From Marinilactibacillus piezotolerans (GTDB lineage: Bacteria; Bacillota; Bacilli; Lactobacillales; Carnobacteriaceae_A), in the NCBI RefSeq assembly GCF_900114235.1, contig NZ_FOSJ01000026.1, positions 1-24,000 on the forward strand: a stretch of DNA of 24,000 nucleotides, in the 5' to 3' direction. This document shows positions 3,050 through 13,993 of the stretch, piece after piece; position 1 is the first letter of the stretch; each line of letters begins with the position of its first letter. The translations under genes and the position numbers were made by a program. The notes below the pieces were generated by a model. That model saw only the letters and a list, made by a program, of their open reading frames with translations, was not told where the DNA came from and searched no databases.

Positions 3050-3565
3050 ATGAATTTTAAATCTGTCGATTCACTGCAACCTATAGTAAATGTAATTAAC
3101 GAAACTAACCAGGCTGTTCAAGACAAATCAAGAACGATGATAGACAGCCCATTATCTGACATGGTATCCGGAGCTTTAGGAGCGGGTATTGGGGGAGCAG
3201 TTTCTTTTGCCGGCTTATACGGGCTAGGTACTGTTGGATTGAGTGCAGTTGGTATCACATCTGGATTAGCTACGGCAGGAAGTATCGTTGGTGGAGGAAT
3301 GGTATCCGGAGTTTTTGTATTGGCGGCTCCAGTTGCAATTATTGCTGGAGGTGGGATTGCATTAAATGCTAAACGAAAAAAAAATAAATTAAAAAGAGAA
3401 AAGGAACGGCTTTACCAGGAAGCTTTAAAAAAACATAATGCAGTGATTGAAGCTTTAAAGGAAGAAGTAAATGCAACAAATGATAGGATGGAATACTTGA
3501 ATGGATTAAACATTTTATTACAACAAGCGATTAAGGAACTAAGGTCAGATTTAGAGGGAGTCTAA
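3050..3565 (+). CDS. Small membrane protein with a glycine-zipper TM region and a C-terminal coiled coil; no recognised family
   Basis: 171 aa. SD AGAGGAG lies 9 nt upstream. Residues ~38-105 are Gly/Ala-rich hydrophobic (GALGAGIGGAVSFAGLYGLGTVGLSAVGITSGLATAGSIVGGGMVSGVFVLAAPVAIIAGGGIAL) with repeated GxxxG. A basic stop-transfer stretch follows (KRKKNKLKREKER), then a heptad-like helical tail. Confidence 0.7.
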   Translation: MNFKSVDSLQPIVNVINETNQAVQDKSRTMIDSPLSDMVSGALGAGIGGAVSFAGLYGLGTVGLSAVGITSGLATAGSIVGGGMVSGVFVLAAPVAIIAGGGIALNAKRKKNKLKREKERLYQEALKKHNAVIEALKEEVNATNDRMEYLNGLNILLQQAIKELRSDLEGV

Positions 3566-4927
3566 ATGAAAAAGTATCAATATTCCGAATCAGAGAAAGA
3601 ACTAAATAAAGTTTTGCATTATCATGATAATGTTTTAAACAGCATTCCTTCTCTTAATCCAAATAAAATAAAAATGGGTCAAAACATCGCTTCAAGTGAA
3701 GAGCTGCTAAAGAAATTAAGTTTTAGTCAGCAAGTTTGTGAGATGGGCAGTAATTTATCTCATACAGAAAAGAAAATAAAAATCTCAAATCTTCGATCTT
3801 GGGACGAGATATTAAAAGATGCTCATAACTTGGTACCTGATGAAGTAGATTTACAGTCATTGTTTATAGAAGAAGAATTACAATCCAACGAACGGTACAT
3901 AAATCAATTAAGAAATGACTTCAATTCTCTTAATAAGTTGGATGAGACTGACTATTTAATTTGTGTTGCTGCAGGTATTCTAGCCGCATCAGTTGATATC
4001 TTTTTAGATGGGATTCCTAAAAAAACAAAAGAAGGTGTCACAGCTGGACCGTTGTCTGATTACATTCGAAATAAATTTGATGAAGCGATTCCTCAAGAAA
4101 AAATAAAAGAGTTGGAAAGAAAGTTTAAAGTTCCTTATGATCTATCAACGAATTATAAATTAGATGAATATGTTGATGGATTGAGTAGTTGGTTTCACAG
4201 GTATCATTCGCTTGGTCATGATCCAATATTAGGATTTGTTTTTGGAGTGTTTGATGTGATGACGGGCAGATTTAGTGCGATAGACAAAAAAGGAAAAGTA
4301 ATTTCACAAATCTTATCTGATGTACCCGAAGGTATTGATATATTTCAAGCTATTGGTAAAGTTTTTGGTCATATGAAATCTGACGTCAATACTTCCATGG
4401 GTTTACCAGCTCCTTTGATGACTTTATTTAATATGTTTCAATTTGGAAAAATAGAAAAAGAGAAGTTAACTATTGCAGAAGTTGCAAGAGGAATGTATGC
4501 ACAAGGTTACGATTTTAAACATTTCTGTTCGATGTCTATATCCACTATGATTATTGAAGTGGTTGTCAGATTGTCTTATTGTATAAAGAGATTAAACGAA
4601 GGTTACAGTTTAAAAGACTCTATTCCAGTAAATGGATTTGGTAGGAAATTGCCTAAATTGCAGACAATGCTTTTTATAGCCCATTCCATAAATACAGCTT
4701 CTAATGCCGGAAAAATTTACTTTACAAAGAATCCATTAGCTATTAATTATACAGAATGGCTAGCCTTTACTAAATACTCTGTTTCGCAATTAAAATGGAC
4801 ACTTCGTGATAAACCGGTACTTAGAGATCAGTATGTAGAAAGTAAACTTCTAGAGGAATGGAATGATCTTCAGTCGGTAATTAATGATATGTGGACAGCA
4901 ACAGAAGAAGATTATATAGTTCTTTAA
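3566..4927 (+). CDS. Hypothetical 453-aa protein with hydrophobic segments; no recognisable family
   Basis: The ATG abuts the upstream stop (TAAATG). SD GAGGGAG sits inside the end of the upstream gene, indicating translational coupling. It has a hydrophobic segment (LICVAAGILAASVDIFL) and several amphipathic or hydrophobic stretches. Possible His-containing motifs are HRYHSLGHDP and GHMKSD. Confidence 0.65.
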   Translation: MKKYQYSESEKELNKVLHYHDNVLNSIPSLNPNKIKMGQNIASSEELLKKLSFSQQVCEMGSNLSHTEKKIKISNLRSWDEILKDAHNLVPDEVDLQSLFIEEELQSNERYINQLRNDFNSLNKLDETDYLICVAAGILAASVDIFLDGIPKKTKEGVTAGPLSDYIRNKFDEAIPQEKIKELERKFKVPYDLSTNYKLDEYVDGLSSWFHRYHSLGHDPILGFVFGVFDVMTGRFSAIDKKGKVISQILSDVPEGIDIFQAIGKVFGHMKSDVNTSMGLPAPLMTLFNMFQFGKIEKEKLTIAEVARGMYAQGYDFKHFCSMSISTMIIEVVVRLSYCIKRLNEGYSLKDSIPVNGFGRKLPKLQTMLFIAHSINTASNAGKIYFTKNPLAINYTEWLAFTKYSVSQLKWTLRDKPVLRDQYVESKLLEEWNDLQSVINDMWTATEEDYIVL

Positions 4928-6027
4928 TCGTAAAACGTTTAGTGGGACTACTAAGTATAACAATCAATCAGTTTGCTGTAGACAGTATGATTGAGCTGAA
5001 GAAGTCATATGAGTTACTTAAAAATCGTTTAGGAAGAATTCCTTATCTAAGAGATTTTGAAGAACAACAGACTTTAGATCCAGTATTGATTGCAGGGAAG
5101 AAGCATAATTATTATGGATTTTTAGATGCAATAAAAGAGAGCGAAAGAGAACTCAGTAAAGAAACATCAGCTTATTTAACCTTTGCTACAAGAGAGCTAT
5201 TAACGGGTATAAGAAGACATGAATTAATTTTGATGCTTAAACTGATTAATGAGCCAAATAAATTGTTTACGGTAGCTGAATTAAAACAATTCTTTTATGA
5301 TCGCGGATTATTAAATGACGAAGAAACGATTAATTCAGTCATACGTACGCTTGATTTGAGCTTCTTTACTGGTCAAGAAGCTAAAACATATAAAGGTTCT
5401 GAGATAATCGAGTTTCAAGGTGAAGAAATAGGTTTAACAATTGAATTCAAAGAGGCACTCAAGAATGAATACTTTGTCAAATTAATTAAAGATACGCTAA
5501 TAACGAGTAAGTTAAAGTCCAAACTATTTGATCAAACGACTCCATTGACCAGATTTCAGAAGTATCGTCGTAAAGATGTTATCAGGTTACTAAAGTGGGA
5601 ACAGCAGATGATCAATCAGAATATTGGTGGTTACACAGATTTCAAAGACCAGTTTGTTATTTTCGTTACGCTGGAAAAAGGGGACGACTTTGCAGGTGCT
5701 CAAATGGCGTATGAAGATGAGCTGCTAGATGCTTCCACCATGAAGTGGTTCACAAAAGCACCACGAACCCTAAACTCCCCAGAAGTTATCAAGCTGAAAA
5801 ATTCAGACGACTATGATATTCGTGTGTTCGTTAAAAAGTCAGATGATGAAGGATCGGATTTCTACTATTTAGGAGAAGTAAAACCGAAGCTGGATACCAT
5901 CACGCAATTAAAGAAACCAGACAGTAATGGTCACATGAAAAAAGTTGTCGAGATGCAGCTGGAATTTTTGCAGCCAATTGAAACTAAATTGTATCGCTAT
6001 TTGCAGTTTAATATCAACAATGTATAA
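4891..6027 (+). CDS. DUF3427-type protein lacking the usual N-terminal helicase/nuclease modules (start uncertain: GTG 4891, GTG 4942 or ATG 4987)
   Basis: The C-terminal ~250 aa (…RFQKYRRKDVIRLL…FVIFVTLEKGDDFAGAQMAYEDELLDASTMKWFTKAPRTLNSPEV…DFYYLGEV) resembles, from memory, the DUF3427 domain found at the C terminus of ResIII/DEAD helicase defence-island proteins. None of the candidate starts has a convincing SD. The frame opens at 4888 and overlaps the upstream gene in the -1 frame. Confidence 0.6.
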   Translation: MDSNRRRLYSSLIVKRLVGLLSITINQFAVDSMIELKKSYELLKNRLGRIPYLRDFEEQQTLDPVLIAGKKHNYYGFLDAIKESERELSKETSAYLTFATRELLTGIRRHELILMLKLINEPNKLFTVAELKQFFYDRGLLNDEETINSVIRTLDLSFFTGQEAKTYKGSEIIEFQGEEIGLTIEFKEALKNEYFVKLIKDTLITSKLKSKLFDQTTPLTRFQKYRRKDVIRLLKWEQQMINQNIGGYTDFKDQFVIFVTLEKGDDFAGAQMAYEDELLDASTMKWFTKAPRTLNSPEVIKLKNSDDYDIRVFVKKSDDEGSDFYYLGEVKPKLDTITQLKKPDSNGHMKKVVEMQLEFLQPIETKLYRYLQFNINNV

Positions 6028-6070
6028 GTAAAGTAAGTATAGGGTATAGGCAAAAGGAGATAAAACTATA

Positions 6071-6985
6071 TTGGTAAATGACCTTGTAAAACAGGAACTA
6101 GATGGAGTGAAATTTAAGCTAAGAGCCAAAGAAGATTTTTCATTTTTAAGTCAATTTGGGAAAGTTTTTTGCGTTTTTGACCAGAATGATTCTGGGAATA
6201 TAAGTTTTGGAGTAATCAATAATAAACTAGAAAAGTTCTTTATAAAAGTAGCTGGAGCTCAAACGCTTGAGTTTGCTGGTAATACTAATGAAGCAGTTGA
6301 AGCATTGAAAAATACTATAGAGATTTATTCAGATTTAAAACACCCTAGTTTAATTAATATGATTTCATCTGGTGATTATAACAATCTATTTTATATTGTA
6401 TTTCGTTGGGCAGAAGGGGATTGTTTATATGATCACTGGAACTTTGATTACTATCATAATCATCCGGAAGTAGAGTCGCCTAGAAAAAGATTTGCTAAAA
6501 TATCGAATGAAGATAAGCTTGAAACAGCGAAACAGATTCTTGAATTCATGGCATTTGTTGAATCAAAAGGATATGTAGCTGTTGATTTTTATGATGGAAG
6601 TTTGATGTATGACTTCAAAAGCAATCAACTAACCATCTGCGATATTGATCTGTTTAAAAAAAGTCCAGTACTAAATGACATAGGTTCAGACTACTGGGGA
6701 ACAAAAAGAATGAAAGCGCCAGAGGAATATCATCTGAATGCAATAATAGATTCAAGAACAAATGTGTTTACTATAGGTGCATTATTTTTCAATCTATTTG
6801 GAAATTACTCAGGTGAACTATTGCGACAAATCTATACGGAAAATAAATTTATACCTTTAGAAGAAAAAAATTGGGCATTATCTTCAGACTTGTATAATGT
6901 AGCATTGGATGCAGTAAAAGAAGAGCCTGAAAAACGATATGCTACTGTTAAAGAATTTAAAGATGAATGGATTAATAAAGCATAA
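6071..6985 (+). CDS. Stand-alone eukaryotic-like Ser/Thr protein kinase-fold protein (Stk2-like candidate)
   Basis: 304 aa with a TTG start and SD AAAGGAG about 12 nt upstream. Kinase subdomain-like motifs are present: FFIKVAG (VAIK Lys), LKHPSLINM, catalytic-loop-like YVAVDFYDGSLMYD, DFG-like ICDIDLF, APE-like MKAPEE, TNVFTIGALFFNLF (subdomain IX) and EKRYATVKEF (subdomain XI). There are no PASTA, TM or other domains. Confidence 0.7.
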   Translation: MVNDLVKQELDGVKFKLRAKEDFSFLSQFGKVFCVFDQNDSGNISFGVINNKLEKFFIKVAGAQTLEFAGNTNEAVEALKNTIEIYSDLKHPSLINMISSGDYNNLFYIVFRWAEGDCLYDHWNFDYYHNHPEVESPRKRFAKISNEDKLETAKQILEFMAFVESKGYVAVDFYDGSLMYDFKSNQLTICDIDLFKKSPVLNDIGSDYWGTKRMKAPEEYHLNAIIDSRTNVFTIGALFFNLFGNYSGELLRQIYTENKFIPLEEKNWALSSDLYNVALDAVKEEPEKRYATVKEFKDEWINKA

Positions 6986-7003
6986 TTTTATAATTAATGA
7001 AAT

Positions 7004-7043
7004 ACCCAATTTACTATTAAAGTAGGTTGGGTGTTTTTATTTT
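7004..7043 (+). terminator. Rho-independent terminator closing the 3050-6985 block
   Basis: The stem is ACCCAATTTACT (7004-7015) paired with AGTAGGTTGGGT (7021-7032), with G-U pairs and a 5-nt loop, followed by GTTTTTATTTT. Confidence 0.7.
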
Positions 7044-7169
7044 CATTGTAGAATCTTAAGATAAATATTTCACTTCAAATTATTTGGGTGCAGATCATGT
7101 CCCCCGTTATCCTTTCGATTACGATATACTATGGTTACAATCAATCTTGGCCAGGGGAGATTAAATAAA

Positions 7170-7964
7170 ATGGAAAATAACAGATTGAATTTGATTTACA
7201 AGTTGAATCATATTGCCAATGAGTTAGAAGTCGGAACTGTAGAATATGAATTAGCAAGATTTTTCTTAGAGAACTTTAAAAGCGTTAACAAATGGAATAT
7301 CTATCAAATTGCAGAAGACAATAATGTATCAAGGGCATCAGTTCGCAGATTCGCTAAGCAACTAGGCTATGCAAACTTTTCAGATATGAAAGCTCATGTT
7401 CAGGAGTTTGATGACGGGATCAATGATTTTCAACAATTCTATGGGGTAGAGGGCTTCTTAGATGTATTAGTCTCAAACATTCAGGCTTTGATGAAAGAGC
7501 TGAGTATCCGAATGAATACGCAGGAAGTGGATCGATTAAATAAACTCATCAATGAAAATAAAGAAGTCATTATTTTCACTTCCAGTAATATCGCAGGTTT
7601 AGTGAAGACATTTCAGCAGCGAATGATTATTTTTGGTAAGAGAATTACTTTGTTGACTGAGCTGGATGATTTGAAAAAATTTAAAAATGTGAAAGAAAAA
7701 CCACTGATTATTGTCGTTTCAATTTCTGGACTTTTGCTTTCAACGATCCTATCCGAACTCAGAGAGATCAATGCTACAAAAATATTATTTACAAACAATC
7801 GTAACCCGATTTACAATCAGGATTTCGACAAACTTTATCATTTGAGTTCGCAGCATCATGAAAGTGATATAAACGATTTGCTTTATTACACCTATGGAAT
7901 CAATTTTGTATTAGATCTGTTATTCAATGGATATTTAATGAAGTATAAAAGGGAAGGAATTTAA
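7170..7964 (+). CDS. MurR/RpiR-family transcriptional regulator (HTH_6 + SIS domain)
   Basis: The N-terminal HTH VSRASVRRFAKQLGYANFSDMK is typical of RpiR. The C-terminal region is SIS-like (EVIIFTSSNIAG…LIIVVSISG). I prefer ATG 7170 (SD GGGGAG 11 nt upstream) to the track start at 7131. Confidence 0.8.
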   Translation: MENNRLNLIYKLNHIANELEVGTVEYELARFFLENFKSVNKWNIYQIAEDNNVSRASVRRFAKQLGYANFSDMKAHVQEFDDGINDFQQFYGVEGFLDVLVSNIQALMKELSIRMNTQEVDRLNKLINENKEVIIFTSSNIAGLVKTFQQRMIIFGKRITLLTELDDLKKFKNVKEKPLIIVVSISGLLLSTILSELREINATKILFTNNRNPIYNQDFDKLYHLSSQHHESDINDLLYYTYGINFVLDLLFNGYLMKYKREGI

Positions 7965-7966
7965 TT

Positions 7967-9424
7967 ATGCATTATAAAGAGAATCCTACATTTCCAAAAG
8001 ATTTTTTATGGGGCGCTTCAAGCGCTGCCTGGCAAGTTGAAGGAGCAGTAGCAGAGGACGGACGTGCTCCGGCAATTATTGATTTAAATAGTAAAAAGAA
8101 AAAACCGTACGCTGATAATTCAATTGCTTCAGATCATTACCATTTTTATAAAGAAGATGTGCAATTGATGAAAGAAGCTGGATTCACTTCGTATAGATTC
8201 TCTATTGCTTGGCCTAGAATTTATCCAGATAACTCAGGTGTGCCCAATCAATTGGGAATCGACTTTTACAATAATCTAATCGATGAATTGATCGATAATG
8301 GTATTACACCAATTGTCACTTTATATCATTATGATATGCCAGTTTGGGTCGATAAAGAATTTAACGGGTGGTATGACCGTGGAATCATAGATGCGTTTGA
8401 TCAGTATGTTAGAACGTGTTTCAACGAATTTGGGGACCGCGTTAAGTATTGGCTAGCGATCAACGAACAGAATATGCAAATCGTCTATGGTGACTGGTTA
8501 GGTGTCTGTAAATACCCAGAAACCTGGTTCAAAGATAAATGGAAAGTAAACCATATCATGAATCTATGTCACTCAAAAGCGGTTATTGCTTGTCATGAAT
8601 TGGTAGAAGGCGGAAAGATCGGTCCTGTTCCGGGAATGGTTCCTTTCTATCCAGAATCTGCTAATCCCCAGGACCAAATTGCCGCAATGAATGCGGAAGA
8701 ATTGACTGAAAAAATCTGGAACGACTTCAATGCAAACCGAGAATATAACGGCTTCATTAAACGTTACTGGAAAGAACATGACATTGATCCAGATATTCGC
8801 CCTGGGGATATGGAATTAGTTGCGCAGGCAGAAATTGATTTCTTTGGAATCAACTGTTACAGAAGTAACGTAGCCAAAGCTTCTCCAGCGGATTCTGAGT
8901 ATCAGGAAATCGGCTTGAATAAATCAGGTGAAAAGGGTAATTTCGTTTATCCAAACTATCCAGGAATCTTTGAACAAACGAATAATCCATTTGTTGAAAC
9001 AACTGACTGGGATTGGGAAATTGACCCAGTAGCGATGCGTTATCTTTTAAGATATATGGAAGATCACTATCACTTGCCAATGGTTATTACAGAAAACGGC
9101 TATGGAGCGCATGAAACATTAGGGGAAGATGGGAAAGTTCATGACGAAGAACGAATCAAATTCCTTAAAGAAAACATTTATCAAATTGGACTAGCCATCG
9201 AAGATGGAGCAAAAGTTTTCGGCTATAATCCTTGGTCATTCACAGACTTATTAAGTACAGGGAACGGAATGGCTAAACGATACGGATTAGTTTATATCAA
9301 TACAACAGATGAAGATGTACTGGACTTGAAACGAATCAAGAAGGATTCATACTACTGGTATAAAGAAGTCATCGCTTCTAATGGCGCAAAAGTAAGTGAA
9401 GAAACAATTGATTTTTCAGAATGA
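7967..9424 (+). CDS. Glycoside hydrolase family 1, 6-phospho-beta-glucosidase
   Basis: 485 aa. GH1 signatures are present: FLWGASSAAWQVEG, TLYHYDMP, acid/base INEQN, nucleophile ITENG, and C-terminal NPWSFTDLLS…KRYGLVYI, which is typical of phospho-beta-glucosidases. Confidence 0.9.
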   Translation: MHYKENPTFPKDFLWGASSAAWQVEGAVAEDGRAPAIIDLNSKKKKPYADNSIASDHYHFYKEDVQLMKEAGFTSYRFSIAWPRIYPDNSGVPNQLGIDFYNNLIDELIDNGITPIVTLYHYDMPVWVDKEFNGWYDRGIIDAFDQYVRTCFNEFGDRVKYWLAINEQNMQIVYGDWLGVCKYPETWFKDKWKVNHIMNLCHSKAVIACHELVEGGKIGPVPGMVPFYPESANPQDQIAAMNAEELTEKIWNDFNANREYNGFIKRYWKEHDIDPDIRPGDMELVAQAEIDFFGINCYRSNVAKASPADSEYQEIGLNKSGEKGNFVYPNYPGIFEQTNNPFVETTDWDWEIDPVAMRYLLRYMEDHYHLPMVITENGYGAHETLGEDGKVHDEERIKFLKENIYQIGLAIEDGAKVFGYNPWSFTDLLSTGNGMAKRYGLVYINTTDEDVLDLKRIKKDSYYWYKEVIASNGAKVSEETIDFSE

Positions 9425-9506
9425 TTATAGAAAACTGTAATGTAATTTAAAATAAAGTATGGCAGTTAAGTGTAAAAACATTTAGCTGCTGTGCTGATCG
9501 CTTATA

Positions 9507-9520
9507 TGTAAACGATTACT
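9507..9520. promoter_or_regulatory. Candidate CcpA catabolite-responsive element (cre)
   Basis: TGTAAACGATTACT matches the cre consensus TGWAANCGNTNWCA at most positions but ends CT rather than CA. It lies about 20 nt upstream of the PTS gene SD. Confidence 0.4.
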
Positions 9521-9530
9521 TTGAGGGTGA

Positions 9531-11381
<1,851 letters not shown>

Positions 11382-12127: not shown

Positions 12128-13993
12128 TTATCTAAATGGTTTCCCACTTTTCTTAACACGATACATTGCGCTATCCGCTTTGCTCAGTAACTCTGTGAGA
12201 GTTGTTCCATCTGTTGGGTAGTAAGCGAACCCTATGCTGGATGTGCAATGTATTTCTATATCATTGACTGAATAAGGTTCGTTCAATAACTTAGAAAGGG
12301 CAGCGATTTCTTCTTGGACATTATATTCAGCGATTTCTTTGATTAAAATAGTAAACTCATCGCCACCCATTCGTGCAGATAAAGCAGTACTATCAGCATA
12401 GATTTTGATTCTATCTGCTAAGGCAGACAAAAGAATGTCTCCAGCTTCATGACCATAATGATCATTGATTTCTTTAAATTTATCTACATCTACAAATAAT
12501 ATGGCAAAGGTTAGATTTTCTTCTTTAGCCTGTTTTAATAGATGAGTTAGTTTTTCTTCAAATAGCCTTCTGTTGCCTAGCCCCGTTAAATAATCATGGT
12601 AAGCATAAAAGTGGATTTTCTCCTCATTTAACTTCTTTTCCGTAATATCTCTACCAATTCCAAAACTACCTACTAATTTATTTTTGACAAGTATAGGGAT
12701 ATGAGTCATATCAATATTCAAGTCACTTCCATCTTTGTTTTTCAAAGTAAATTCATGACTGCTGGGAACTTCATTTTTGGTTGTGGATAATTGTTCATTC
12801 TGATTAGCTGTATAATGCTGTTCAATGAAATCTGCAATAGGGAAGCCATTCAAAGCATTTGGATCATCTCCAATCAATGTGGCACCCACAGAGTTCATAC
12901 TCTCTATTTTTCCTTGTAAATCAAAAGAAAATACAGAATCAGGGTGATATTCAAAAAGAGATCGGTACCGTTCTTCGCTTACTGCTAATTCTTCTGTTTT
13001 CTGATAGTACTGTTTTACTAATTTTCGGTTTTCAGAAATAACAACGAATTGTCTCAAAAGTACAAAAGTGATAGACAAACCGGATCCTACGCTTATCATA
13101 TCCAGGCCATTAGATTTTGTAATCATGAAAAAGAACAAGAAAATAACCAGTAAATAAGGAAGGATAAGTTGCCAAATAGATAGTGAGTAATTATCCAGCT
13201 TTTCTATTTCTATAGCAGTTTTTCTTTCAGATTCTCTTCCGATAAGAGCAGTATAGCCAATTAACAATTCCGGTAAAATAAATAACGGATCGATCCATTT
13301 GCCGGAAAAATAAATCCCTTGAGCAATTTCAAAAAAATGAATAGAGCCAGAAAAGATTTGTATGCTTAATCCAATCAGAATGTAATTCAACACTCGTTTT
13401 GAAAAAAATTCTTCTCCTCCAAAGTAAAAAGCAGAGACACACAGTAATAATAAAATATCTATAATAGGATAATAGAGATTAACAGATAAAGATAGTAAAG
13501 AAACATTTCCTTGCTCAATAAACGGTTCCAGAATATAATACCAGCTGAATGTTATGGAAACAGTCATCACGACGCCAATATCAAAAATAAACTTAGTGAA
13601 CATAGCTTTATTGGCTTGTCTCCATATAATAAAGACAAAAGCAAACAGACAAAATAGAACAGAAGCCATATAGAAAATTTCATATAAACTTAGTGAAGGA
13701 GAGGGAACAATAAGGATGGTTTCACTATAAAATGAAAAAATTTCTCCTATCAAATAACTAAATGTACTTAAAAATAATAACAGCCAATACACTTTATTGA
13801 TTTTTAATTTGCTTTTTCTGTATGCGCTCAGTAACCACATACTGGGAATGAAGGTACCGATTATCGAAAAAACATTGCCCCCTGAGATGCGCAGATATTC
13901 ATTATCCTGCCATATCAGTAACCATAAAAAATAAAATAAAATGAAACCTGTTAAGGCTATTAACCAAATTTTATTTTCTTTTTTTATTTTCAT
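12128..13993 (-). CDS. Membrane sensor diguanylate cyclase (multi-TM N-terminal domain, PAS, GGDEF)
   Basis: 621 aa with SD AAGGAG 7 nt upstream of the ATG. The first ~310 aa contain about 9-10 hydrophobic helices. A PAS-like segment follows (ERYRSLFEYHPDSVFSFDLQGKI…). The GGDEF domain carries an intact RMGGDEF active site and YHDYLTGLGNRR. Confidence 0.85.
   Translation of the reverse strand: MKIKKENKIWLIALTGFILFYFLWLLIWQDNEYLRISGGNVFSIIGTFIPSMWLLSAYRKSKLKINKVYWLLLFLSTFSYLIGEIFSFYSETILIVPSPSLSLYEIFYMASVLFCLFAFVFIIWRQANKAMFTKFIFDIGVVMTVSITFSWYYILEPFIEQGNVSLLSLSVNLYYPIIDILLLLCVSAFYFGGEEFFSKRVLNYILIGLSIQIFSGSIHFFEIAQGIYFSGKWIDPLFILPELLIGYTALIGRESERKTAIEIEKLDNYSLSIWQLILPYLLVIFLFFFMITKSNGLDMISVGSGLSITFVLLRQFVVISENRKLVKQYYQKTEELAVSEERYRSLFEYHPDSVFSFDLQGKIESMNSVGATLIGDDPNALNGFPIADFIEQHYTANQNEQLSTTKNEVPSSHEFTLKNKDGSDLNIDMTHIPILVKNKLVGSFGIGRDITEKKLNEEKIHFYAYHDYLTGLGNRRLFEEKLTHLLKQAKEENLTFAILFVDVDKFKEINDHYGHEAGDILLSALADRIKIYADSTALSARMGGDEFTILIKEIAEYNVQEEIAALSKLLNEPYSVNDIEIHCTSSIGFAYYPTDGTTLTELLSKADSAMYRVKKSGKPFR

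What the first reader, a model, noticed from the sequence alone, without database searches (positions are those of the whole stretch)
6071..6985. Stand-alone eukaryotic-like kinase with an atypical catalytic loop, analogous to the Stk2 abortive-infection kinase
The 304-aa protein is a bare kinase domain with no PASTA, TM or regulatory domains. This differs from the housekeeping PrkC/Stk1 type and resembles Stk2 of Staphylococcus epidermidis, which has been described as a phage-triggered abortive-infection kinase.

By eye, the VAIK Lys, catalytic Asp, metal-binding Asp (DID in place of DFG) and APE motif are present. The HRDxxxxN loop reads VDFYDGS, so the conserved Asn appears to be replaced by Ser and there is no HR dyad. 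This could indicate a non-RD, constitutively poised or divergent kinase. It is the last gene of the candidate operon.
Basis: partly seen in the sequence, partly recalled or inferred. Interest (0 to 1): 0.6.

Follow-up and report, generated by a model that had tools for sequence, protein, structure and literature searches.

The report
Orphan atypical kinase, not defence
The gene is a real, intact protein-kinase-fold enzyme with an unusual but strictly conserved active site; it belongs to a widespread uncharacterised family, appears to have been here before the neighbouring phage-defence genes arrived, and shows no tie to phage defence elsewhere.

Summary
Observation confirmed. window:6071-6985 (+) encodes an intact 304-aa bare kinase domain. 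Pfam Pkinase scores 36.3 bits (cut-off 31.7). The AF2 model has pLDDT 93, and its best PDB matches are eukaryotic-type protein kinases, not aminoglycoside or choline kinases.

The odd motifs are real: AVDFYDGS replaces HRDxKxxN and DID replaces DFG. They are near-invariant in 194 homologues. The alphaC Glu and the GxGxxG loop are also non-canonical.

The Stk2-like abortive-infection reading is not supported.
- In two congeners the kinase, or its remnant, sits beside the same PAS-GGDEF gene with no defence genes.
- The three sequences form one clade, with moderate support.
- None of 80 other loci holds a homologue of GmrSD, BnzA, BnzB or DUF3427.
- No match was found in 50,697 phage records.

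Neighbours are enriched for GNAT and NUDIX enzymes. Real fusions join this domain to GNAT, APH, NUDIX, GrpB, methyltransferase and exporter domains.

Best reading: a resident member of an uncharacterised, horizontally mobile family of probably active atypical kinases. The substrate is unknown and is possibly a small molecule. Moderate interest; the scan has not noted this family on other DNA.

The parts
6054..6059 (+). Shine-Dalgarno AAGGAG, 11 nt before the TTG start
   Evidence: read directly from the sequence
6071..6985 (+). Intact 304-aa stand-alone atypical ePK-fold kinase gene (TTG start)
   Evidence: ORF; Pkinase 36.3 bits, cut-off 31.7; 1083 homologues, about 300 aa; AF2 pLDDT 93.4; ePK fold
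6191..6211 (+). Degenerate Gly-rich loop S41-G-N-I-S-F-G47 (canonical GxGxxG lacks its middle Gly)
   Evidence: G42 192/194, G47 192/194, I44 180/194
6245..6247 (+). K59, the VAIK-type ATP-anchoring Lys
   Evidence: 193/194
6584..6601 (+). Catalytic loop D172-F-Y-D-G-S177. The catalytic Asp is kept. Lys reads Tyr and Asn reads Ser; the preceding HR reads AV.
   Evidence: alignment to PknB; conservation
6638..6649 (+). C190-D191-I-D193, in place of xDFG; both Asp residues are near-invariant
   Evidence: In a distant sub-branch D191 is lost together with D172, while D193 and D175 are mostly kept.
6698..6730 (+). P+1 loop and APE segment G210-T-K-R-M-K-A-P-E-E-Y220. Spacing is canonical, with a conserved basic cluster K212, R213, K215.
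6935..6937 (+). R289, which aligns with the conserved subdomain-XI Arg of PknB that pairs with the APE Glu in eukaryotic-type kinases
   Evidence: 193/194; alignment; helices F-I in the model
6999..7037 (+). Intrinsic terminator closing the kinase transcription unit
3050..6027 (+). Context only, NOT part of the feature: BnzA-like (3050-3565), BnzB-like (3566-4927) and a helicase-less DUF3427 ORF (4891-6027). This is a defence block lying upstream of the kinase.
   Evidence: no homologue beside any of 80 family members
12128..13993 (-). Context: the PAS-GGDEF gene that anchors synteny with congeners. In this strain it is separated from the kinase by an RpiR/GH1/PTS block (7131-11381).

Best explanation
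The gene encodes an intact member of a large, uncharacterised family of about 300-aa stand-alone kinases. I call it the DFYDGS/CDID family. It descends from Hanks-type (eukaryotic-like) protein kinases and keeps their whole fold.

It appears to be an older resident of this chromosomal spot. In the genus (inferred to be Marinilactibacillus) it sits next to a PAS-GGDEF gene. The Bunzi-like pair, the DUF3427 ORF, the dead GmrSD gene and the IS1380 element lie where M. kalidii has QueT/QueF, and a beta-glucoside block lies downstream. The kinase is therefore a bystander of the defence island, not its fourth gene. In this strain it may nevertheless be transcribed by read-through, because only 43 nt separate it from the DUF3427 ORF.

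Mechanism (inferred):
- It is probably an active phosphotransferase.
- ATP would be held by K59 and the hinge.
- D172 would act as catalytic base.
- Metal would be bound by D191 and/or D193, perhaps with D175 and S177 replacing the missing Asn.
- As a non-RD kinase it would not need activation-loop phosphorylation.

The substrate is unknown. Neighbours are enriched for GNAT and NUDIX enzymes. Genuine fusions join this domain to GNAT, APH, NUDIX, GrpB, methyltransferase, hydrolase and exporter domains. My best guess is therefore that it modifies a small molecule (xenobiotic, antibiotic-like or metabolite) rather than signalling through proteins or killing infected cells.

Sub-confidences: atypical-family member 0.95; not a functional part of the defence block 0.8; catalytically active 0.65; small-molecule substrate 0.35.
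For: Fold and family:
- Pkinase scores above its cut-off and there is no APH hit.
- The profile's best PDB match is S. aureus PknB, E = 3.6e-12.
- The AF2 model has pLDDT 93.4 with helices F-I.
- Foldseek top hits are FGFR, IRAK4, KIT, CASK and CaMK, with TM about 0.65.
- There are 1083 homologues of about 300 aa and 179 cluster representatives at E <= 1e-30.
- The atypical residues are near-invariant in 194 sequences.
- In a distant sub-branch D172 and D191 are lost together, as expected if they work as a catalytic pair in the main family.

Residency:
- M. kalidii has QueF/QueT, then the kinase, then PAS-GGDEF.
- Another congener has a 126-aa kinase remnant at the same place.
- Flanking genes are collinear.
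- The query plus its 78% relative is sister to the M. kalidii and remnant sequences, support 86/83.

No defence link:
- There is no conserved neighbour in 80 loci.
- There is no homologue of GmrSD, BnzA, BnzB or DUF3427 in any of them.
- PADLOC hits among the 150 neighbours are generic. The commonest, mad2, is the MADS methyltransferase.
- None of 50,697 phage records holds a match.

Small-molecule association:
- Among immediate neighbours, GNAT is 13/150 and NUDIX 6/150.
- In the control at positions +-5 to 7, GNAT is 4/150 and NUDIX is not among the 25 listed families, the last of which has 2 members.
- Of 20 multidomain representatives, 5 carry GNAT, 6 APH, 3 NUDIX, 2 methyltransferase, 1 GrpB, 1 alpha/beta hydrolase and 1 FUSC/ArAE.
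- Fusions recur in isolates (Saccharibacillus RefSeq proteins) and in up to 18 independent assemblies.
- On the Bacillus mycoides plasmid p249 a copy lies in an IS6-flanked block with a GNAT gene.
Against: - No biochemical data exist.
- The family lacks the alphaC Glu, the catalytic-loop Lys and the Asn. Their loss in other kinases often marks pseudokinases.
- The full ePK C-lobe (APE, helices G-I, R289) is the hallmark of protein-substrate kinases. Small-molecule kinases of the APH type lack it.
- The basic K212/R213/K215 cluster would not suit cationic aminoglycosides.
- GNAT enrichment is modest (13 versus 4 of 150). GNAT, APH and NUDIX are abundant accessory genes in Firmicutes.
- The partner domains match no specific resistance equivalog.
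- Synteny rests on three species. Four other congeners lack the gene, so the site is variable and independent insertion at a hotspot is not excluded. Clade support is only 86/83.
- In this strain the gene does lie 43 nt after a defence-island ORF, and no convincing promoter was seen in or near that gap.
Confidence: 0.55

Rival explanations
1. It is a non-defence protein Ser/Thr kinase. It is a constitutively poised non-RD Hanks-type kinase that phosphorylates one or a few cellular proteins, and its GNAT, APH and NUDIX partners are themselves protein- or nucleotide-directed.
For: - It has the complete ePK fold with an activation segment of canonical length, GT...APE spacing, helices F-I and the R289 partner of the APE Glu.
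- The closest sequence relative with a structure is PknB.
- Several partner GNATs weakly resemble ribosomal-protein acetyltransferases.
Against: - There is no sensor, docking or partner domain, and no conserved neighbour.
- The gene is patchy and dispensable within the genus and horizontally mobile. This is unusual for a signalling kinase that needs a cognate substrate.
- The catalytic-loop Lys, which contacts the transferred phosphate in Ser/Thr kinases, is missing.
Confidence: 0.25
2. It is a phage-defence kinase. It would be either a single-gene abortive-infection kinase like Stk2 or PD-T4-6, or a recruited fourth component of the Bunzi-like/DUF3427 block in this strain.
For: - It lies 43 nt downstream of a defence block on the same strand, with no terminator-like site found in between.
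- It gives weak PADLOC hits to mad6, MkoA and PD-T4-6 kinase domains.
- Its distribution is patchy and horizontally transferred.
- Stk2 is itself a eukaryote-like Ser/Thr kinase acting through abortive infection (PMC6532042).
Against: - Synteny and phylogeny indicate the kinase predates the island.
- 0 of 80 loci have the upstream genes.
- Neighbours are not defence genes.
- PADLOC scores are no better than the generic Pkinase score.
- No match in the phage collection.
Confidence: 0.1
3. It is a pseudokinase. It would be a nucleotide- or ligand-binding scaffold or sensor that has lost phosphotransfer, or it would catalyse a non-canonical reaction such as AMPylation.
For: - It lacks the alphaC Glu, the HRD His/Arg, the catalytic-loop Lys and Asn, and the DFG Phe/Gly.
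- Pseudokinase CASK is among the top structural matches.
- A distant sub-branch has clearly lost both D172 and D191.
- Tandem APH-kinase fusions could pair an active with an inactive domain.
Against: - K59, D172 and D191 are kept in at least 192 of 194 sequences.
- D172 and D191 are lost only together, and only in a separate sub-branch. This argues that they are used for catalysis in the main family.
Confidence: 0.1

Closest known systems
Hanks-type bacterial Ser/Thr kinase catalytic domains (PknB/Stk1 of S. aureus, PDB 4eqm; Pfam PF00069)
   Same: - Same fold and domain order.
- Shares the VAIK Lys, catalytic Asp, first Asp of DFG, APE and the alphaH-alphaI Arg.
- It is the best sequence-profile match among solved structures.
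   Different: - No PASTA, TM or juxtamembrane parts.
- Non-RD (AVD).
- Tyr replaces the catalytic-loop Lys and Ser replaces Asn.
- DID replaces DFG.
- No alphaC Glu, and a degenerate Gly loop.
- All of these are fixed family-wide.
Stk2 abortive-infection kinase of Staphylococcus epidermidis/aureus
   Same: Both are eukaryote-like kinases lacking PASTA repeats, and both occur sporadically (PMC6532042).
   Different: - No defence-island association was found for this family.
- No Stk2-named model appeared among the PADLOC hits.
- A direct sequence comparison could not be run, because no Stk2 sequence is held in the tools.
PD-T4-6 and the kinase components of MADS (mad6), Mokosh (MkoA) and BREX (PglW)
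   Same: There are weak HMM matches over the kinase core.
   Different: - Scores (44 bits or less) are at the level of any kinase domain.
- Those proteins are validated in defence operons, whereas this family has no such context.
Bifunctional antibiotic-modifying enzymes such as AAC(6')-Ie/APH(2'')-Ia, and APH-family small-molecule kinases (PF01636)
   Same: - It works-like by association. Family members are fused to, or adjacent to, GNAT, APH, NUDIX and GrpB domains.
- That is the same modular logic as bifunctional acetyltransferase-kinase resistance enzymes.
   Different: - This domain is not an APH. There is no PF01636 hit.
- It has the ePK-type C-lobe, and eukaryotic-type protein kinases head the Foldseek list.
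- No resistance equivalog is matched.
- No substrate is known.
CASK and other metal-site-altered atypical kinases
   Same: The canonical Asn metal ligand of the catalytic loop is lost within an otherwise complete ePK fold. CASK is among the top structural matches.
   Different: From my own knowledge, CASK also lacks the DFG Asp, whereas this family keeps D191 and adds D193. There is no CaM-kinase regulatory context.

Membership tests
Eukaryotic-like (Hanks-type) protein kinase superfamily, Pfam PF00069 | Pkinase HMM score above the gathering cut-off | tested here: met
   36.3 bits against 31.7
Eukaryotic-like (Hanks-type) protein kinase superfamily, Pfam PF00069 | Bilobal ePK fold including the activation segment, APE and helices F-I | tested here: met
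   AF2 pLDDT 93.4. Foldseek top 50 are all ePKs, with TM 0.59-0.68.
Eukaryotic-like (Hanks-type) protein kinase superfamily, Pfam PF00069 | VAIK Lys, catalytic Asp, DFG Asp | tested here: met
   K59, D172 and D191 are aligned to PknB and kept in at least 192 of 194 sequences.
Eukaryotic-like (Hanks-type) protein kinase superfamily, Pfam PF00069 | Canonical HRDxKxxN catalytic loop, alphaC Glu and GxGxxG loop | tested here: not met
   The loop reads AVDFYDGS. T82 (Ala/Thr/Ser in the family) sits at the alphaC Glu position. The Gly loop reads SGNISFG. It is a member by fold and HMM, but an atypical one.
Stk2-type abortive-infection kinase | Specific sequence relationship to Stk2 beyond the generic kinase core | not testable with these tools
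   No Stk2 sequence or named model was available. PADLOC returned no Stk2-named hit.
Stk2-type abortive-infection kinase | Association with defence islands or mobile defence loci across homologues | tested here: not met
Stk2-type abortive-infection kinase | Phage-triggered activation and host-protein phosphorylation leading to cell death | not testable with these tools
   This needs infection assays and phosphoproteomics.
PD-T4-6 defence kinase (PADLOC models) | Strong full-length match to a PD-T4-6 model | tested here: not met
   The best score is 32 bits (E = 2e-8) over the generic core. This is lower than the Pfam Pkinase score.
PASTA kinase PrkC/Stk1 (NF033483) | Score above the equivalog cut-off; PASTA repeats | tested here: not met
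   20 bits against a cut-off of 450. A separate 669-aa frame elsewhere in the genome is the PASTA-type kinase.
APH/choline-kinase-type small-molecule kinases (PF01636) | APH HMM hit, or an APH-like C-terminal substrate lobe | tested here: not met
   There is no APH hit at E <= 0.01. Eukaryotic-type protein kinases fill the 50 listed Foldseek matches.
Bunzi system (BnzA/BnzB) plus accessory genes | Kinase recurrently adjacent to BnzA/BnzB or DUF3427 homologues | tested here: not met
   0 of 80 family loci

The most novel reading that the evidence does not exclude
The DFYDGS/CDID family is a lineage of true eukaryotic-type protein-kinase folds that has been re-tooled into a mobile small-molecule kinase for xenobiotics, antibiotics or metabolites. 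The Asn metal ligand would be replaced by a second acidic residue (D193) and the catalytic-loop Lys by Tyr. It would operate alongside, and sometimes fused to, GNAT, APH, NUDIX and GrpB modifying enzymes. That would be a class of modification or resistance enzyme that current APH-based resistome screens do not detect.
Probability: 0.3. Interest if true: 0.65.

Novelty: new variant of a known kind. Interest (0 to 1): 0.35.

Why it matters
- For this locus, the result removes the kinase from the proposed four-gene anti-phage system. Tests of that block should treat it as a Bunzi-like pair plus a DUF3427 ORF.
- More generally, it flags a sizeable family that has no dedicated model in Pfam, NCBIfam or PADLOC. 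It has more than 1000 sequences and was found in 354 places in a set of one genome per species. It is mostly in gut and rumen Clostridia, with transfers to Lactobacillales, Negativicutes, Bacillus plasmids and a methanogen.
- The active site is remodelled yet strictly conserved. It is a natural experiment in how a Hanks-type kinase can work without the catalytic-loop Lys and Asn and the alphaC Glu.
- If the GNAT/APH/NUDIX association reflects function, the family may be an unrecognised class of small-molecule-modifying enzyme in commensals.

Tried and rejected
- Defence-kinase reading: PADLOC hits to mad6, MkoA, PD-T4-6 and PglW are no stronger than the generic Pkinase score. I rejected them as family evidence.
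- PADLOC mad2 hits in 6 neighbours: these looked like a MADS link. However, mad2 is the MADS methyltransferase and the neighbours include 5 generic SAM methyltransferases, so I rejected it.
- GGDEF linkage: the gene is adjacent in Marinilactibacillus (and a GGDEF lies near one Oscillospiraceae copy). Only 4 of 80 loci have any GGDEF homologue within 10 kb, so I rejected a functional pairing.
- Conserved-partner search: all-vs-all clustering of 1321 neighbour ORFs found none.
- Upstream-region homology between the window and M. kalidii: nothing alignable, so the exact right-hand border of the island could not be placed.
- NCBIfam on the fusion partners: only sub-threshold generic hits.
- Literature searches found no description of this family.
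- AF2 coordinates are not exposed, so active-site distances could not be measured.
Full report
THE OBSERVATION

window:6071-6985 (+) is an open frame of 304 codons starting at TTG.
- AAGGAG lies at 6054-6059, 11 nt upstream.
- A 17-pair hairpin with a T-run lies at 6999-7037.
- Pfam finds only the kinase domain: Pkinase at 36.3 bits against a gathering cut-off of 31.7, and PK_Tyr_Ser-Thr at 23.9.
- No APH or choline-kinase model appears.
- The PASTA-kinase equivalog scores 20 bits against a cut-off of 450.
- The genome's PASTA-type kinase is a separate 669-aa frame on another contig.

The HMMER alignment to the S. aureus PknB kinase domain (4eqm) places the motifs as follows.
- A170-V-D172-F-Y-D-G-S177 lies on H-R-D-I-K-P-Q-N.
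- D191-I-D193 lies on D-F-G.
- The APE segment and R289 lie on their PknB counterparts.

The residue at the alphaC Glu position is T82, and the Gly-rich loop is SGNISFG.

THE DEVIATIONS ARE FAMILY TRAITS

A search of 5.8 billion proteins found 1083 homologues, nearly all about 300 aa long. Over 194 distinct sequences the conservation is as follows.

| Residue | Kept (of 194) |
|---|---|
| K59 | 193 |
| D172 | 193 |
| Y174 | 192 |
| D175 | 190 |
| S177 | 193 |
| C190 | 193 |
| D191 | 192 |
| D193 | 194 |
| G210 | 194 |
| P217 | 192 |
| E218 | 191 |
| R289 | 193 |

- The alphaC position is Ala, Thr or Ser throughout.
- A profile search of 1.84 billion cluster representatives gives 179 representatives at E <= 1e-30.
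- In the more distant of these, D172 and D191 disappear together (for example G...S), while D175 and D193 mostly stay. This pattern is expected if D172 and D191 are a working catalytic pair in the main family and a side branch has become a pseudokinase.

FOLD

- With the 30-sequence alignment, AlphaFold2 gives mean pLDDT 93.4 and pTM 0.90. The model has the full set of C-lobe helices.
- The 50 listed Foldseek matches against the PDB are all eukaryotic-type protein kinases: FGFR, IRAK4, KIT, RET, CASK, CaMK and MELK, with TM about 0.6-0.68.
- The family profile's best solved relative by sequence is S. aureus PknB, E = 3.6e-12.
- This is therefore a true ePK-fold protein, not an APH-type kinase.

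IS IT PART OF THE DEFENCE BLOCK?

Genes upstream on the same strand:
- an IS1380 transposase
- a truncated GmrSD gene
- a BnzA-like ORF at 3050-3565
- a BnzB-like ORF at 3566-4927, PADLOC 223 bits
- a DUF3427 ORF at 4891-6027 that matches only the C-terminal third of a 953-position type IV restriction model

The kinase follows after 43 nt.

Comparative evidence separates it from them.
- In Marinilactibacillus kalidii the order is QueF, QueT (minus strand), kinase (plus), PAS-GGDEF (minus), two ABC genes, MarR, metallophosphatase. I infer that this record is congener G006, from the identical 107,300-bp contig length.
- The window has the same kinase, GGDEF, ABC, ABC, MarR and metallophosphatase in the same order and orientation. 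Amino-acid identity is 57% for the kinase, about 54-60% for GGDEF and 68-88% for the others.
- A 4.3-kb RpiR/GH1/PTS block (7131-11381) is interposed between the kinase and GGDEF. The defence genes lie where QueT/QueF lie in M. kalidii.
- A second congener (G003) has a 126-aa C-terminal remnant of the kinase between GGDEF and QueT/QueF.
- Two others (G002, G005) have GGDEF directly beside QueT/QueF with no kinase.
- In a maximum-likelihood tree, the query and its 78% relative are sister to M. kalidii plus the remnant. Support is 86/83, so it is moderate.
- In M. kalidii the kinase has its own 314-nt upstream region with a TTGACA-17-TAAGAT promoter-like site. The window has nothing alignable to it.

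The simplest reading is that the kinase was at this variable site before the island arrived. In this strain it may now depend on read-through transcription.

CONTEXT ACROSS THE FAMILY

A scan of one genome per species found 354 encoding places. They are mostly Lachnospiraceae, Oscillospiraceae and Clostridium. Tetragenococcus, Pectinatus, Dubosiella and a Chitinispirillia MAG also appear. Enterococcus and Methanomicrobium appear among the protein hits.

Results for the 80 fetched loci with 10-kb flanks:
- All-vs-all clustering of 1321 neighbour ORFs finds no partner at a fixed position.
- None holds a homologue of GmrSD, BnzA, BnzB, DUF3427 or RpiR.
- The 150 immediate neighbours are short (median 215 aa).
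- By Pfam tally, the neighbours include GNAT 13, NUDIX 6, SAM methyltransferase 5 and alpha/beta hydrolase 4.
- A control of 150 ORFs at positions +-5 to 7 gives GNAT 4 and methyltransferase 4. NUDIX is not among the 25 listed families, the last of which has 2 members.
- At E <= 1e-10, PADLOC matches only generic domains. The commonest, mad2, is the MADS methyltransferase.

Other context:
- Three fully annotated neighbourhoods show housekeeping and accessory metabolic genes.
- The family is absent from 50,697 phage records.
- It is present on 7 of 72,556 plasmid records. One Bacillus mycoides conjugative plasmid carries it in an IS6-flanked block with a GNAT gene.
- Pectinatus and Methanomicrobium copies are sisters inside a Lachnospiraceae clade, which points to horizontal transfer.

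DOMAIN FUSIONS

Among the cluster representatives, 20 multidomain proteins were scanned.

| Partner domain | Proteins carrying it |
|---|---|
| GNAT | 5 |
| APH | 6 |
| NUDIX | 3 |
| Methyltransferase | 2 |
| GrpB | 1 |
| Alpha/beta hydrolase | 1 |
| FUSC/ArAE membrane domain | 1 |
| No recognisable partner | 3 |

Two proteins carry two partners: APH with NUDIX, and APH with a methyltransferase.

These fusions are not assembly artefacts.
- The 687-aa GNAT-x-kinase form occurs in RefSeq proteins of cultured Saccharibacillus.
- The 486-aa membrane-domain form has 18 cluster members.
- The 576-aa APH-kinase form recurs in three assemblies.

The partner domains match no specific resistance equivalog.

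HOW IT MOST LIKELY WORKS

Shown: the fold, the retained K59, D172, D191 and D193, the APE and R289, the non-RD loop, and the absence of the Lys, Asn and alphaC Glu.

Inferred:
- The enzyme binds ATP through the hinge and K59.
- It uses D172 as base.
- It ligates metal through D191 and/or D193, perhaps helped by D175 and S177.
- It needs no activation-loop phosphorylation.
- The conserved basic K212/R213/K215 cluster on the P+1 loop suggests an anionic or acidic substrate.

The GNAT/APH/NUDIX/GrpB company and fusions tilt me toward a small-molecule substrate (about 0.35). The intact protein-kinase C-lobe keeps a protein substrate a serious rival (about 0.25). Pseudokinase and defence readings each get about 0.1.

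COMPARISON WITH KNOWN SYSTEMS AND NOVELTY

- It is a member of the Hanks-type superfamily by HMM and fold, but it fails the canonical catalytic-loop, alphaC and Gly-loop features.
- It is not a PASTA kinase or an APH.
- By context it is not Stk2-like or PD-T4-6-like. A direct Stk2 comparison could not be run.
- I found no paper describing the family. No dedicated model exists in Pfam, NCBIfam, PHROGs or PADLOC.
- The scan's index shows no look-alike on other DNA.
- I rate it a new variant of a known kind, of moderate interest. The specific claim handed to me, an Abi kinase closing a defence operon, is not supported.

Noticed in passing
window:7131-11381: An RpiR / GH1 6-phospho-beta-glucosidase / beta-glucoside PTS IIABC block lies between the kinase and the PAS-GGDEF gene. 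It is absent from the syntenic M. kalidii locus, so it looks like a second insertion at this variable site.
   Followed up: partly
L018:9797-10177 (congener G003): A 126-aa C-terminal remnant of the kinase, with a stop within the match to the query, lies between PAS-GGDEF and QueT/QueF. This is gene decay at the same locus. Four other congeners lack the gene.
   Followed up: partly
L001:7687-8000 (M. kalidii): The orthologous kinase has its own 314-nt upstream region with a TTGACA-17-TAAGAT promoter-like site. The window has only 43 nt between the DUF3427 stop and the kinase start.
   Followed up: partly
P0199-P0271 (distant representatives): In a sub-branch of the superfamily the catalytic Asp (to Gly) and the first Asp of DID (to Ser, His or Asn) are lost together, while D175 and D193 are mostly kept. 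This is a probable pseudokinase offshoot.
   Followed up: no
L072 (Pectinatus frisingensis) and P0090 (Methanomicrobium sp.): The Negativicutes and methanogen copies are sisters (100/98) nested among Lachnospiraceae sequences. This indicates transfer between phyla and between domains.
   Followed up: no
L102:2516-12875 (Bacillus mycoides plasmid p249): A family member lies between two IS6 transposase genes together with DJ-1/PfpI, Lrp and GNAT genes on a conjugative plasmid. The block looks like a composite transposon.
   Followed up: no
P0277 / P0278 (Saccharibacillus, 669-687 aa): In the GNAT (about residues 22-150, as seen in cluster-mate P0144) and kinase (from about 408) fusion, about 250 residues in the middle match no Pfam family. 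This may be a further unknown domain.
   Followed up: no
window:4891-6027: The DUF3427 ORF matches only positions 623-951 of a 953-position type IV restriction-enzyme model, and it overlaps the BnzB-like gene by 37 nt. It may be a truncated remnant rather than a working gene.
   Followed up: no
L002 and L019 (Tetragenococcus solitarius): The closest named genome relative (61% identity) sits between a LytTR/DUF3021 pair and an ABC-F-type ATPase (Pfam-annotated in L002). This is a third, different context within Lactobacillales.
   Followed up: no
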